Assembly (NCBI RefSeq): GCF_051903065.1
Contig: NZ_CP178438.1
Origin: Escherichia coli
GTDB lineage: Bacteria > Pseudomonadota > Gammaproteobacteria > Enterobacterales > Enterobacteriaceae
Length of the DNA: 64,000 nt
Direction: 5' to 3' (one strand)
Each line of letters opens with the position of its first letter. Within the stretch, counting starts at the first letter, position 1. Shown here in pieces: positions 32,488 to 35,400 of the stretch. A program made the position numbers.

Positions 32488-35400
32488 TAATTACCATCCG
32501 GAACGAGACCGCTTTATCCGGACTTTGCCGGATGCAGAACGTCAGGTTCTTAATGCCATAGTCGTTTGCAGACACCAGTTGATCGCAATGCCAGTTACTG
32601 AGCAAAACAGGTTGTACCCGGCTCACCCGCAAAGCAAAAAAAAACATTAATATCATCAAAGCGCTGGAAGATGAACACCCACATCCGGAACCATTTTAAA
32701 GAACCAGCTGAGCACCTGAGCAACATTAAAGGCATCGGCGTAATGACTACGGCGGTGCTGGTAGCCTGTATGCGCAAACTGCTGACCATCCTGAATGCGA
32801 TACTCAGAAAGAACAAAGAAATGTAATGAATCCTGCCATCAGGTTACTCCATAATTTTGTTGGTCAAGACAGTTAATTACGTGACGTATGCTCAGGCACC
32901 GGATGCCGTTTTACAGGGCTCACCTGCCATCCAGTAGACGCCCCGGCCCACGACTGCAACCATAATTACGTTGCCCAGAACCGTCATGCTGCTTCGTCTC
33001 ATACTTCACGAGATAACAGGCTCTCTCCATGGCTTTCTGCATCGCTTCCACATCACCACGCTTGACCCAGAGAACAGCGGCTTCACCCGGCTTTTTGTCT
33101 GAAGCCTTCCTGGTTTCAGAACATCCACCCGACAAAGGCGTATCATCGGAAGAAGGGCGAGCATCAGATGATGTCGGTTTACGGAAAGGCGTCCGCCTGG
33201 AAAAATGAACCAGTCCATTACCCTGCCAGGGCTCGAGATGCAGAGCACTGCACCATGCCAGCTTGATCAGCGTCGCCAGCGAAGAAGGAACGGTGAAATC
33301 CCCTGGCGAGCACCAGGTATCTTTGTTGAGCAGTAATATCACGTGATAATGTTTCCTGCCTTTTTCCTTGCCAAACTCCCGACACCAGAAATAACGCAGA
33401 GTGGTTGCACGCACACGCTTGTTGGCACGTCGTTTTTTCCGCTGGTAAGCCTGAATTTTTGCTTTCAGGGATTCGAAAAAACGAGAAATCACTGCTGAAT
33501 CTAAATCGGTATCCATAATAGTGGCAGGCATATACTCAGGAAAACGTAAATCCACCCGAATTAACGAGACGGCACGGTGCTGCACTAGGGCACTGTCGAG
33601 AAGGCTGTCAAAACGGGATAACCAGTAAGCATTGTGTATTGGTTGATTCATGATGAGAGATCTCCGTTGATTTGGATTGACTTCACATCATTAATCACTG
33701 CGGTAAAACTTTACGGCATCCCGCCATTGAGCAACGCCAATGGCTCCTGATTAAAACAGAATGAATCCCCCACGAAGAAAAGATAAACCTACACGCAGGG
33801 TAAAACACACAACAACGGCATAAATGGTTTTTAAAAACTACAAAGCCCGAAGGGAAACGGATCAACAGAACGTGCAAACAAAACACCAAAAACGCAATCA
33901 GAACGCTTTCTGCTGCTGTGAATCAACAACAATACCAAAACCTACAGCTTAACCACAAAACTCAATCACAGAGCCGAATAGCGCGTTTAAAACCTGTTTA
34001 CAGATAACCCTGCCCCGAGAACAAAAACCACCAACATCAGAATCGATTTTCTTATCCTGAAAACGTTACTTTTCAACACACCATAAAAACGATTAACCAT
34101 CGATAACGTAAATCTCATCTGAATCAAAACACCAGAACCAATCATCACGCTTTTTCTGAAAAGAGCCTTATGATGAAGATAATCACCTTGCACTGAGAAA
34201 AAACACCAGGGCCAGTTAATCATCTCATCAATCTTATCGCTACAAAATCATCCATAAAACCATTTAACAAAATCATCGTAAGCACACAGTAAATCACGCC
34301 AGGTTATCTCAGCCGGATTTGCGTTTTACATAAAAACACTTGTCTCAGGTTAACGACTAAAAACACGAAAACTCATAAAAGGTTAAATGTAACATCAGAA
34401 AAATAGAATATCATATTGATTGCTTAAACAGGAAAGATTGTTTTGTAGTAGCATTAAGCTGATTTTAGTTAACGTAAAAACAGGACTGACAGGTTTACTA
34501 AACTGGATGTGTATCAGACAAAGCAATGTGTATAACAATACTTAATGAAAACACTTGTAGAATTGTTTATGAAAACATGTGTATGTCTGGTAAAACACTT
34601 AGTAGAAAATACGTGTATAACACTTACTGAAATGCTTAGTAAAAACACTTAGTAAAATATGTGTAGAATTATCTATTTAAAAAGATATGTATATAACACT
34701 TAATAAAAACATGTGTATATAGTATCATACCGACATTCTCAACATCTTCAGACACTCATGCAGACTGAATGTTCGTTTCAGTTTTTCACGGCCAGCATGG
34801 GGATTTTTGTTCTGAAAACGGAGCAGATTTACTCTGGAATTATTTTTCTGTCCCCGTATTTCAGGCCCCAGAAAAGACAATCCGAAGCAAACCGTTTGTC
34901 AGCTTCCATATCATCTTTTACCCCCGGAAAGTGATCGCGTTTTACAACCAGAATGACAGCCATACTGATTATGTCGTCTCCCGGCCCCCTTCACATATAA
35001 CATGCATGCCTGTCATTGCTTACTGCTCCACATGACAGGATTTCACATACAGGATGCGCATTCAGTGTTTTTATCGCCACTATAACAGACAGATTACTGT
35101 CGCTTTTACTCTTCAGATTGTTAATCTGACCACAAGAACAGTCGAACAGTACAACGACACACCCAAGGAGGATATGAGCAGTAGTTGATAGCATGTTTTA
35201 ATTTATTATGAATAGATCAAGAATAGATCGTGAATAGTTAGAGAATAGTTCTTCAGCATCTCACAGAGTGATCAAGCCTTGAAGTGATTGCTTTTTGAAC
35301 ACAAGTCCGGATGCAATGTTTTTTTGTTAACTTCCTTGCATATTCGATTTCCATGTGATAGTGAAAATCACCAGAAGAGAATGCGATTGAGGCGTAATCA

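What the first reader, a model, noticed from the sequence alone, without database searches (positions are those of the whole stretch)
34500..34720. Iteron-like repeat array with DnaA-box-like motifs
Within an ORF-free region, one perfect DnaA-box consensus (TGTGTATAA) and two 8/9 matches are interspersed with five or more copies of (A/T)AACACTT(A/G) over about 220 bp. Such arrays resemble replication-origin iterons or regulator binding-site clusters of satellite or integrative elements. It lies upstream of the unknown gene pair at 35402-37155.
Basis: seen in the sequence. Interest (0 to 1): 0.45.

Follow-up and report, generated by a model that had tools for sequence, protein, structure and literature searches.

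The report
Repeat cluster beside conserved island control box
The repeats are real and conserved, but they are not a DnaA-type replication origin; they flank a short, deeply conserved promoter-like box next to a rolling-circle-type nuclease gene, in an unannotated control region of a genomic-island family found in about a third of E. coli genomes.

Summary
Window 34506-34717 carries five AACACTT and seven YGTRTA(T) copies, all on the + strand, far above shuffled expectation. The DnaA/iteron reading does not hold. The single perfect DnaA box is a by-product of the TGTGTAT repeat and survives in only 7 of 58 natural variants. There is no RepA-type initiator, P4 repeat, IHF site or 13-mer.

The array lies in a 1.75-kb unannotated spacer between a divergent Gp2/YfjJ gene and a 269-aa gene. 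The Gp2/YfjJ protein has HUH and Tyr motifs and a parvovirus-Rep-like fold. The 269-aa protein has a C-terminal ribbon-helix-helix domain. The array abuts a 20-bp box (TATAGT-ATCATA-CCGACA, 34714-34735). That box recurs 130-520 nt upstream of yfjJ-family genes, in one orientation, in 35 of 66 loci across Gamma- and Betaproteobacteria. It has a sigma-70 -10 signature but no -35.

Repeat arrays next to the box occur only in some lineages and vary by whole units.

Best reading: reiterated docking sites for an island-encoded DNA-binding protein that controls a -35-less promoter. The main rival is a rolling-circle or transfer origin for the HUH protein. Neither is proven. The control region appears undescribed.

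The parts
34506..34717 (+). Repeat array: interspersed AACACTT(A/G) and (A)YGTRTAT motifs, sometimes fused as YGTRTATAACACTTA
   Evidence: establish sequence, repeat families and shuffle statistics. The array is conserved, with whole-unit indels, in related islands.
34550..34701 (+). Span holding the five AACACTT copies (starts 34550, 34594, 34619, 34644, 34695)
   Evidence: One search gives positions. One search gives 5 observed against a shuffle mean of 0.15 and a maximum of 3 in 5000.
34508..34718 (+). Span holding the seven YGTRTA(T) copies (starts 34508, 34527, 34578, 34612, 34660, 34688, 34712); these produce the DnaA-box-like matches
34527..34535 (+). The only perfect TGTGNATAA (DnaA-box consensus) match
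   Evidence: It is not conserved: TGTGTACAG in L002-L005, and a perfect box in only 7 of 58 variants.
34659..34709 (+). Extra repeat unit of about 51 bp, specific to this variant
   Evidence: These columns are occupied in fewer than 10% of 58 unique variants.
34714..34735 (+). Conserved core box TGTATATAGTATCATACCGACA: -10-like TATAGT at 34718-34723, a 6-nt spacer, then CCGACA at 34730-34735
   Evidence: It is the only PWM hit in the window (21.8 bits). The same box is found in the same orientation, 130-520 nt from yfjJ-family genes, in 35 of 66 loci: 1.02 per kb against 0.017 per kb elsewhere. The -10 hexamer is conserved and there is no -35.
34736..34847 (+). Conserved segment downstream of the box, ending in GGAATTATTTTT; beyond it at least 6 alternative continuations (cargo boundary)
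   Evidence: A terminator-like hairpin lies at 34806-34827. There is no covariation support for an RNA structure.
33652..34505 (.). Rest of the conserved non-coding spacer between the HUH gene and the array. It is strongly strand-skewed: A/C-rich on the + strand, GC skew down to -0.42.
   Evidence: It is specific to the E. coli subfamily; other lineages have only 130-290 nt here.
32920..33651 (-). Gp2/YagK-YfjJ family gene encoding an HUH endonuclease (Rep-like), divergent from the array
35402..36211 (+). 269-aa gene co-oriented with the box: new all-alpha N-domain plus a C-terminal ribbon-helix-helix DNA-binding domain
   Evidence: Homologues follow the box in 15 other loci across genera. 7 of 30 homologues hit PF10723 RepB-RCR_reg and others hit RHH_1. 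The window protein's C-terminus gives sub-threshold hits to the same families. Profile hits in the PDB are all RHH proteins. The N-domain has no fold match.
35210..35248 (+). Four GAATAG repeats at exact 11-nt spacing upstream of the RHH gene; a separate candidate operator
   Evidence: Variants with a different RHH beta-strand carry AATATT x3 at 11-12 nt spacing instead.

Best explanation
The array is a lineage-specific, copy-number-variable cluster of short protein-recognition motifs. The motifs are AACACTT and its near reverse complement ATACACA, read as TGTGTAT on the + strand. The cluster forms the upstream flank of a deeply conserved 20-bp core box in the control region of the island's HUH (YfjJ/Gp2) module.

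Proposed mechanism:
- The box is a sigma-70 promoter with a good -10 (TATAGT) but no -35. It fires rightward, away from the HUH gene, starting in or next to CCGACA. It points toward the RHH-domain gene and then the GTPase...CbtA operon.
- Without a -35 it depends on a DNA-binding protein.
- The repeats are reiterated docking sites that recruit that protein cooperatively. One AACACTTA copy sits over the -35 position.
- The binder is most likely encoded by the same module: the HUH protein through an origin-binding-type surface, or the excisionase-type AlpA.

What is shown: the repeats, their conservation and unit-wise variation, the box, its -10 signature, its linkage to yfjJ genes, and the nature of the flanking proteins. 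What is inferred: transcription from the box, protein binding to the repeats, and the identity of the binder.
For: - Repeats are far above chance and strand-specific.
- The array is present, with the same motifs, in homologous spacers of 1865 of 5426 complete E. coli genomes at 70-100% identity.
- Copy number ranges from 1-6 and 3-10 by whole-unit indels in 58 variants.
- The array abuts the box.
- The hexamer 6 nt before CCRACA is TATAnT in most of 34 loci. Positions 2 (A) and 6 (T) are essentially fixed and position 5 is free, which is the sigma-70 -10 pattern. The reverse-strand hexamers are not conserved.
- A -35 is absent: 3% of loci reach 4/6 or better, against 15% at control offsets.
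- In 18 or more of 32 loci the next gene after the box is co-oriented. It is a homologue of the window's 269-aa RHH protein in 15 of them and a GTPase in Providencia, starting 190-500 nt downstream in most.
- Providencia heimbachae has three AAACACATAG copies just upstream of its box.
- The array, the box and the next 118 nt are inherited together with the Gp2 gene, while the DNA beyond is swapped.
Against: - No transcript data: the start site and direction are inferred from sequence only.
- Motif columns are no more conserved than the spacers between them (0.92 against 0.92), so there is no footprint of selection on the motifs themselves.
- Most lineages keep the box with no repeat array, so the array is dispensable for the core function.
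- In 7 loci the box faces the 3' end of a convergent yfjI gene, with no co-oriented gene to serve.
- The near-invariant CCRACA is more conserved than a start region normally needs to be.
- The array does not co-vary with the RHH protein, which has its own phased repeats.
Confidence: 0.45

Rival explanations
1. Rolling-circle or transfer origin. The conserved box is the nick or recognition site of the adjacent HUH protein. The repeats are accessory iterons that load the protein, and the RHH-domain protein acts as a CopG- or relaxosome-accessory-like partner. After excision the island would replicate or be mobilised from here. This reading can coexist with a promoter at the same place, as in geminiviruses and pMV158.
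For: - The HUH and Tyr motifs are intact and conserved. The fold is closest to parvovirus NS1/Rep nickase/origin-binding domains. From my own knowledge, not tested here, those domains bind tandem short repeats next to their nick site.
- The box is tied to yfjJ genes in position and orientation whatever lies on the other side, including the 7 loci where no gene could use it as a promoter.
- CCRACA is the most conserved part of the box.
- Different lineages carry different repeats next to the same box: E. coli; Budvicia with an 8-mer x17; Limnobaculum with ATTAATA x11; Providencia.
- An RHH gene of the RepB-RCR_reg/CopG type lies next door.
- A 62-kb island of this family is deposited as a closed circular 'plasmid' with no known replicon.
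- YfjI/DUF3987, the protein type used as the 'primase' marker in the satellite model of PMC10803314, lies 0.9 kb away.
Against: - There is no conserved hairpin around the box (mean z -0.37 over 34 loci).
- The -10-like conservation pattern is explained better by RNA polymerase than by a nuclease.
- Arrays are absent from most lineages.
- No nicking or replication data were found for any YfjJ protein. The Pseudomonas islands with Gp2-like genes are reported as phage-transduced, with no function assigned to that gene.
- The other, shorter Gp2 paralogues in E. coli islands lack the box.
Confidence: 0.25
2. No sequence-specific function. The array is AT-rich DNA expanded by slippage or unequal exchange, like a VNTR. 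At most it acts as curved DNA or an H-NS-bound silencer of a horizontally acquired island.
For: - G+C is 25% against 50% for the window.
- Variation is almost entirely by whole-unit gain and loss.
- Motif positions are no better conserved than spacers.
- The array is missing from most lineages that keep the box.
- Budvicia and Limnobaculum carry simple tandem expansions at the same place.
- Some islands of the family encode an H-NS paralogue.
Against: - The motif is strictly strand-specific and is kept over 70-100% divergence of the spacer.
- A related AAACACATAG triplet sits at the same place in Providencia.
- The repeats are interspersed and irregularly spaced rather than a clean tandem array.
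Confidence: 0.17
3. RNA-level element. The repeats would be part of a long 5' leader of the yfjJ mRNA (transcribed leftward), or the box would drive a small RNA of about 100-120 nt ending at the hairpin and U-run at 34806-34847.
For: - The conserved module ends exactly after GGAATTATTTTT.
- A terminator-like hairpin was flagged at 34806-34827.
- The spacer is strongly strand-skewed.
- A ProQ/FinO-family pseudogene lies in the island.
Against: - No Rfam family matches.
- The RNAalifold consensus is weak (-4.15 kcal/mol) with no compensatory pair in 24 variants.
- The first candidate hairpin is not kept in the L002/L006-type variants.
- Reverse-strand -10 hexamers are not conserved.
Confidence: 0.1
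4. One reading: a DnaA-dependent, iteron-type (or P4 ori/crr-like) theta origin.
For: - One perfect and five 8/9 DnaA-box matches, above shuffled expectation.
- AT-rich context.
- A DUF3987 (YfjI) gene lies nearby.
Against: - The perfect box is kept in 7 of 58 variants, and the homologous position reads TGTGTACAG in L002-L005.
- All the DnaA-like hits are copies of one unrelated repeat.
- There are no regular 17-22 bp iterons.
- No RepA-type initiator is found in Pfam or NCBIfam scans of the neighbours.
- There are no P4 TGTTCACC repeats, no IHF consensus, no 13-mer, and no GATC in the array.
- There is no match in phage records. All four plasmid matches are E. coli plasmids; the two examined carry island DNA, and the array is not at an annotated replicon.
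Confidence: 0.03

Closest known systems
pMV158-family rolling-circle replicon (dso with nic and bind loci, CopG-RepB)
   Same: An HUH initiator gene, a ribbon-helix-helix regulator gene of the CopG/RepB-RCR_reg type, and a cis region that combines a conserved core with short direct repeats and a promoter, all within about 2 kb.
   Different: The HUH protein here belongs to the YagK/YfjJ (G2P-related) family, not Rep_2. The two genes are divergent rather than forming one operon. No hairpin surrounds the core. The repeats are irregular and are absent in most relatives. No nicking or replication has been shown.
Geminivirus/CRESS-DNA and parvovirus origins (Rep-binding iterons beside a TATA box and a conserved nick motif)
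   Same: A lineage-specific repeat set lies next to a family-wide conserved short core that overlaps a promoter. The HUH fold is closest to parvovirus NS1/Rep. The left half of the box (ATATATTAC; TAGTATCAT in the window) matches the TAnTATTAC nonanucleotide at 7 of 9 positions. That comparison is mine, made from memory of the motif.
   Different: There is no stem-loop. The similarity to the nonanucleotide may simply reflect AT-richness. The element is a chromosomal island, not a virus.
P2 Cox boxes at P4 PLL, and Xis-type excisionase arrays
   Same: Several short, same-orientation repeats upstream of a weak-or-absent -35 promoter in an integrative element that encodes an excisionase-type (AlpA) protein. 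The description of Cox and Xis binding is from my own knowledge, not tested here.
   Different: No AlpA binding site is known. The window's AlpA-like gene is about 7 kb away. In PICMI satellites, AlpA expressed in trans did not change transcription (PMC10803314).
Iteron plasmid origins with DnaA boxes (pSC101, R6K, P1, F oriS), and P4 ori/crr
   Same: An AT-rich region with reiterated short sequences and DnaA-box-like matches.
   Different: See the membership test: repeat length and spacing, initiator type, conservation of the DnaA box, DUE and P4 repeats all fail.
RHH operator arrays (inc18 omega heptads WATCACW, ParG, MetJ)
   Same: 7-8 bp motifs in both orientations (A[A/T]ACAC[A/T]T), clustered upstream of a promoter, with an RHH protein encoded downstream.
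   Different: The array does not co-vary with the RHH beta-strand. A different set of 11-bp-phased repeats, nearer the gene, does.

Membership tests
Iteron-type theta origin with DnaA boxes | Three or more directly repeated iterons of about 17-22 bp at regular (about 22 bp) spacing | tested here: not met
   The conserved motifs are 7-9 bp with irregular spacing of 7-28 bp. TRF finds only a 13-bp period at 65% match.
Iteron-type theta origin with DnaA boxes | Adjacent gene for a RepA-type (winged-helix) initiator | tested here: not met
   The neighbours are an HUH protein, an RHH-domain protein and a 315-aa protein with no family hit. There are no Rep_3 or RepA hits in Pfam or NCBIfam.
Iteron-type theta origin with DnaA boxes | DnaA box(es) conserved among relatives | tested here: not met
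   Perfect TGTGNATAA in 7 of 58 unique variants; TGTGTACAG at the homologous site in L002-L005.
Iteron-type theta origin with DnaA boxes | AT-rich unwinding element (13-mers) and IHF site | tested here: not met
   No GATCTnTTTATTT and no WATCAANNNNTTR anywhere in the spacer.
Iteron-type theta origin with DnaA boxes | Supports autonomous replication | not testable with these tools
   Needs a replication assay.
P4 ori/crr | Clusters of type I repeats (TGTTCACC, recalled from memory) bound by the alpha protein | tested here: not met
   None in the spacer. No DNA match to any phage record.
Rolling-circle double-strand origin or oriT of an HUH protein | Adjacent HUH endonuclease with catalytic His-hydrophobic-His and Tyr motifs | tested here: met
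Rolling-circle double-strand origin or oriT of an HUH protein | Short nick/recognition core conserved across the protein family, close to the gene | tested here: inconclusive
   A 20-bp box is conserved in 35 of 66 loci, with 61-fold enrichment and fixed orientation. Nothing shows that it is nicked.
Rolling-circle double-strand origin or oriT of an HUH protein | Inverted repeat or hairpin that presents the nick site | tested here: not met
   No consistent structure around the box; mean z -0.37 in 34 loci. Not every HUH system needs a hairpin.
Rolling-circle double-strand origin or oriT of an HUH protein | Reiterated initiator-binding repeats beside the core | tested here: inconclusive
   Present in E. 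coli, Providencia heimbachae, Budvicia and Limnobaculum; absent in most other loci.
Sigma-70 promoter with upstream operator or activator sites | -10 hexamer with conserved A2 and T6 | tested here: met
   TATAnT at a fixed 6 nt from CCRACA in most of 34 loci.
Sigma-70 promoter with upstream operator or activator sites | -35 hexamer at 16-18 bp | tested here: not met
   3% of loci reach 4/6 or better, against 15% at control offsets. This implies dependence on an activator, if it is a promoter at all.
Sigma-70 promoter with upstream operator or activator sites | Co-oriented gene downstream | tested here: inconclusive
   Co-oriented in about two thirds of 32 loci (an RHH-family gene in 15, a GTPase in 1). 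In 7 loci the next gene is a convergent yfjI.
Sigma-70 promoter with upstream operator or activator sites | Mapped transcription start | not testable with these tools
   No transcript data are available here.
RHH operator array (omega/ParG/MetJ type) | Repeat sequence co-varies with the RHH recognition strand | tested here: not met
   The array is identical in variants whose RHH strand reads QINVKIS or QISALIS. The proximal 11-bp-phased repeats differ instead: GAATAG against AATATT.
Type III toxin-antitoxin repeat RNA (ToxI-like) | Exact tandem repeats of about 36 nt immediately upstream of a toxin gene | tested here: not met
   The repeats are degenerate and irregular, and lie 680 bp from the next gene.
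Known RNA family (Rfam) | Match at gathering score | tested here: not met
   Nothing in 33500-35600. The only window hit is C0719 at 52219-52440.

The most novel reading that the evidence does not exclude
The box and its flanking repeats would be the cis site (nick site plus iterons) of a previously unrecognised HUH-driven rolling-circle replication or self-mobilisation module. The module would comprise the YfjJ/Gp2 nuclease, an RHH accessory protein, AlpA and YfjI. It would be shared by CP4-57/CP4-6-like and pathogenicity-type islands across Gamma- and Betaproteobacteria. That would give a mechanism for the amplification or transfer of islands that have no conjugation or capsid genes.
Probability: 0.22. 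Interest if true: 0.8.

Novelty: new variant of a known kind. Interest (0 to 1): 0.5.

Why it matters
Islands with this backbone (P4-type integrase, AlpA, YfjI, YfjJ, GTPase, antirestriction, RadC, CbtA/CbeA) carry virulence, defence and resistance cargo in about a third of complete E. coli genomes. Here the cargo includes sul2, strAB, tet(A) and floR, and CTX-M-55 in a sister genome. How these islands are switched on, copied and moved is poorly understood. The Gp2/YfjJ gene has no assigned function in the papers I could find. A 20-bp box conserved from E. coli to Advenella, tied to that gene, gives a concrete cis site to test. So does a repeat cluster whose copy number differs between strains. 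The tests are promoter mapping, protein footprinting and nicking assays. If the box proves to be a nick site, the finding would expose a new replication or mobilisation route. If it is a promoter, it marks the master switch between the two halves of the island.

Tried and rejected
- **Rfam.** Gathering and permissive scans found no RNA family in the spacer.
- **K-12.** CP4-57 and CP4-6 have no DNA homology to the spacer. Only the box upstream of yagK is shared.
- **YfjR-type regulator as binder.** The window's 225-aa protein after the GTPase is unrelated to YfjR or to the Providencia HTH_DeoR protein.
- **P. aeruginosa AlpA antitermination as a model.** That AlpA is a different, Q-like protein. 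Its site is GGGACG between -35 and -10 (PMC9371919). Not applicable.
- **Leading-region / oriT-upstream idea.** From textbook F-plasmid geometry, leading-region genes are transcribed toward oriT. That would place an oriT downstream of the GTPase...CbtA genes, not in this spacer, so the argument gives no support.
- **Small RNA from the box.** The consensus fold is weak and has no compensatory pairs.
- **Hairpin around the box.** None is conserved.
- **Array units as degenerate copies of the box.** Only ATGTGTATA is shared. No second PWM hit of 9 bits or more exists in the window.
- **Selection on motif positions.** Not detectable.
- **Fold search of the 269-aa protein.** No match for the N-domain.
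- **Literature searches.** Queries for YfjJ/YagK, inovirus Gp2, DUF3987 and DUF932 turned up no description of this spacer, box or array.
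Full report
**1. Where the window comes from**

The window is identical to E. coli W2-5 (NZ_CP032989.1, reverse strand) and to many other strains. It covers a composite island next to yghD/gsp. The C0719 sRNA at 52219-52440 marks the chromosomal flank.

The finding lies in a 1750-bp stretch, 33652-35401. No gene is annotated there in the 100%-identical genomes, and no ORF exceeds 88 aa. Gene order around it is:
- To the left, on the - strand: a 243-aa 'inovirus Gp2 family' gene (32920-33651), an IS110 remnant, and YfjI/DUF3987 (30131-32017).
- To the right: a 269-aa gene (+), a 315-aa gene (-), then a YfjP-like GTPase, DUF905, DUF932, antirestriction, RadC, DUF987, and CbeA/CbtA, all on the + strand.

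**2. The observation**

AACACTT occurs five times in 34550-34701, with a sixth copy at 34335, always on the + strand. Dinucleotide shuffles give a mean of 0.15 and never more than 3 in 5000.

TGTGTATAA at 34527 is a perfect TGTGNATAA. Five more sites have one mismatch. Six sites compare with 1.3 +/- 1.1 in shuffles (p about 0.0015). A single perfect box alone appears in 11% of shuffles.

All the DnaA-like sites are copies of one repeat, (A)TGTGTAT. This repeat is close to the reverse complement of the other motif: ATACACAT against AACACTT. The array can therefore be read as about twelve A[A/T]ACAC[A/T]T-type half-sites in both orientations, sometimes fused into a small palindrome (GTGTATAACAC). 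Spacing is irregular, 7-28 bp. TRF sees only a weak 13-bp period.

**3. Conservation within E. coli**

A 551-bp query around the array finds homologues in 1865 of 5426 complete E. coli genomes. Matches are at 70-100% identity, often with several per genome, almost all on chromosomes, and essentially never annotated. There is no match in phage records. The only four plasmid matches are E. coli plasmids, and the two examined carry island DNA.

Six divergent copies align along the whole spacer from the Gp2 gene to about 35140. Within the array, variation is mostly gain or loss of whole units.

With 69 further metagenomic copies I obtained 58 unique array variants:
- AAYACWT ranges from 1 to 6 copies.
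- YGTRTA ranges from 3 to 10 copies.
- The window is at the top of both ranges, because it has an extra 51-bp unit (34659-34709) seen in fewer than 10% of variants.
- A perfect DnaA box is present in only 7 of 58.
- Motif columns are not better conserved than the spacers between them (0.92 against 0.92). The whole region is conserved rather than the motifs alone.

**4. The conserved box**

The array ends in TATAGTATCATA-CCGACAT.

I looked at distant relatives of the Gp2 protein: Providencia and Brenneria via encoding contigs, and 67 loci from one genome per species. The same kind of sequence recurs there. Its consensus is T..ATATATTAC(T/C)A(T/A)A-CC(G/A)ACA.

- It lies 130-520 nt upstream of the yfjJ-family gene and always points away from it.
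- 35 of 66 loci have a hit in that zone on that strand: 1.02 per kb against 0.017 per kb elsewhere in the same loci. The median leave-one-out score is 23 bits.
- Hosts include Enterobacteriaceae, Morganellaceae, Budviciaceae, Psychromonas, Marinomonas, Oceanimonas, Alcanivorax and the betaproteobacterium Advenella.
- E. coli K-12 has it upstream of yagK (TATAATACCTATCCAACA). K-12 yfjJ has only a degenerate version.
- Nothing beyond about 20 bp is conserved across genera.

**5. What the box looks like**

The hexamer that ends 6 nt before CCRACA is TATATT, TATAAT, TATAGT or TATACT in most loci. Positions 2 and 6 are fixed and position 5 is free, which is the conservation pattern of a sigma-70 -10 element.

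There is no -35 at 16-18 bp: 3% of loci reach 4/6 or better, against 15% at control offsets. The candidate hexamers on the opposite strand are not conserved. There is no conserved hairpin.

The simplest reading is a rightward promoter that starts in or next to CCRACA and cannot work without a helper protein. The very high conservation of CCRACA suggests that something other than RNA polymerase also reads this sequence.

**6. The array relative to the box**

Repeat arrays lie between the yfjJ gene and the box in only some lineages:
- E. coli: AACACTT and TGTGTAT.
- Providencia heimbachae: AAACACATAG x3.
- Budvicia: an 8-mer x17.
- Limnobaculum: ATTAATA x11.

Most loci have 130-290 nt here and no repeats. 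The array is therefore an optional, lineage-specific elaboration of the upstream flank of the box. In E. coli, one AACACTTA copy covers the position where a -35 would be.

**7. The flanking proteins**

- then IS608 TnpA and Helraiser.

It is an intact-looking Rep-type nuclease.

*The 269-aa protein at 35402.* It belongs to a small family of 48 representatives. Members follow the box, co-oriented, in 15 other loci from many genera. Its C-terminus is a ribbon-helix-helix domain:
- 7 of 30 homologues hit RepB-RCR_reg and others hit CopG-type RHH models.
- The window protein gives sub-threshold hits to the same families.
- Profile hits in the PDB are MatP, Reg576, CopG and MazE7, all RHH proteins.
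- The alignment shows the strand-helix-helix pattern.
- Its N-domain is all-alpha and has no fold match.

In seven other loci the box instead faces the 3' end of a convergent yfjI gene. The box therefore goes with yfjJ, not with its right-hand neighbour.

**8. Who binds the array?**

The RHH protein is an obvious candidate, but the data point elsewhere. Four GAATAG repeats at exact 11-nt spacing lie 160-190 nt upstream of the RHH gene (35210-35248). Variants with a different RHH recognition strand carry AATATT x3 at 11-12 nt spacing there instead. The finding's array is the same in both.

The array, the box and the next 118 nt are inherited with the Gp2 gene. Beyond GGAATTATTTTT (about 34847) at least six unrelated continuations occur.

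The more likely binders are therefore products of the left-hand module (the HUH protein, or AlpA) or a host nucleoid protein. This is inference; nothing here measures binding.

**9. Weighing the models**

- *Promoter-with-docking-sites model.* It explains the -10 signature, the missing -35, the usual co-oriented gene and the position of the repeats. It does not explain the loci with a convergent neighbour, nor the extreme conservation of CCRACA.
- *Rolling-circle or transfer-origin model.* It explains those two points, the HUH-plus-RHH pairing (as in pMV158 CopG/RepB), and the lineage-specific repeats next to a family-wide core (as in geminiviruses and parvoviruses). It lacks a hairpin, and no YfjJ activity has been reported.
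- The two models are compatible with each other.
- *Neutral or H-NS reading.* This stays plausible for the array itself, given whole-unit variation and no motif-specific constraint.
- *DnaA/iteron/P4 model.* It fails every testable criterion.

**10. Literature**

Searches found no description of this spacer, box or array.

A 2025 preprint lists a Gp2-like protein, AlpA and RadC as likely core genes of Pseudomonas islands transduced by a jumbo phage. It assigns the Gp2-like protein no function.

In Vibrio PICMI satellites, AlpA is necessary and sufficient for activation and appears to act as an excisionase rather than a transcription factor. DUF3987 is used there as the primase marker.

**11. 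Verdict**

The repeat array is real and conserved, and the DnaA label on it is wrong. It is best seen as an accessory part of an undescribed control element of a very common island family. Its function is unproven. Interest is moderate, and would be high if the box proves to be a nick site.

Noticed in passing
window 28635-29560: A second long ORF-poor, AT-rich spacer lies upstream of a second YagK/YfjJ paralogue (27968-28534, - strand). It carries ATGGAT 8 times on the + strand (shuffle mean 0.7, maximum 5 of 3000). A weak box-like sequence lies at about 29525-29550. The layout parallels the finding's spacer but uses a different motif.
   Followed up: partly
L011-L013 (CP057032.1, pRHB40-C01_2): A 62-kb closed circular 'plasmid' with no replicon type and no plasmid replication gene consists of an island of this family. 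It carries an integrase next to DUF4942, two AlpA genes, three Gp2-type genes, and the array plus the box. It looks like an excised island circle recovered as its own contig.
   Followed up: partly
window 35210-35248: Four GAATAG repeats at exact 11-nt spacing lie upstream of the RHH-domain gene. Variants with a different RHH beta-strand have AATATT x3 at 11-12 nt spacing instead. This is a likely operator of that protein.
   Followed up: partly
window 35402-36211: The 'hypothetical' 269-aa protein belongs to a small family that partners yfjJ genes across genera. It has a new all-alpha, Trp-rich N-domain with no fold match and a C-terminal ribbon-helix-helix domain of the RepB-RCR_reg/CopG type.
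   Followed up: yes
window about 34847: There is a sharp module boundary. After GGAATTATTTTT, at least six unrelated continuations occur among natural variants. This marks a recombination or cargo-insertion point between the Gp2 module and the downstream genes.
   Followed up: partly
window 33700-34400: The spacer is strongly strand-asymmetric: GC skew down to -0.42 and AT skew up to +0.50, so the + strand is A/C-rich. It is conserved in the E. coli subfamily only, and its function is unknown.
   Followed up: no
L008 35126-35147 (NC_000913.3 about 293125-293146): E. coli K-12 carries a strong copy of the box (22 bits, TATAATACCTATCCAACA) about 190 nt upstream of yagK, pointing at the 3' end of yagL. 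It would be a convenient place to test the box in a model strain.
   Followed up: partly
L041 (Budvicia aquatica) and L032 (Limnobaculum eriocheiris), just upstream of their boxes: Simple tandem expansions abut the box directly: an 8-mer repeated about 17 times (printed as TTACAGTA), and ATTAATA x11. This flank appears prone to repeat expansion in several lineages.
   Followed up: partly
window 32920-33651: The E. coli 243-aa Gp2 subfamily has an insertion of about 45 residues with low model confidence (roughly residues 150-190) that the 189-207-aa relatives lack.
   Followed up: no
window 1-25000; L001 28575-30965: The island carries a resistance block with ISCR2 fragments (sul2, aph(3'')-Ib, aph(6)-Id, tet(A), floR). 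In a sister genome, ISEcp1-blaCTX-M-55 is inserted into the cbtA toxin gene of the same backbone.
   Followed up: no
window 33824-33952: A small + strand ORF next to the Gp2 start is annotated as a 57-64 aa hypothetical protein in some related genomes (L003-L005) but is only 42 aa here. Its reality was not assessed.
   Followed up: no
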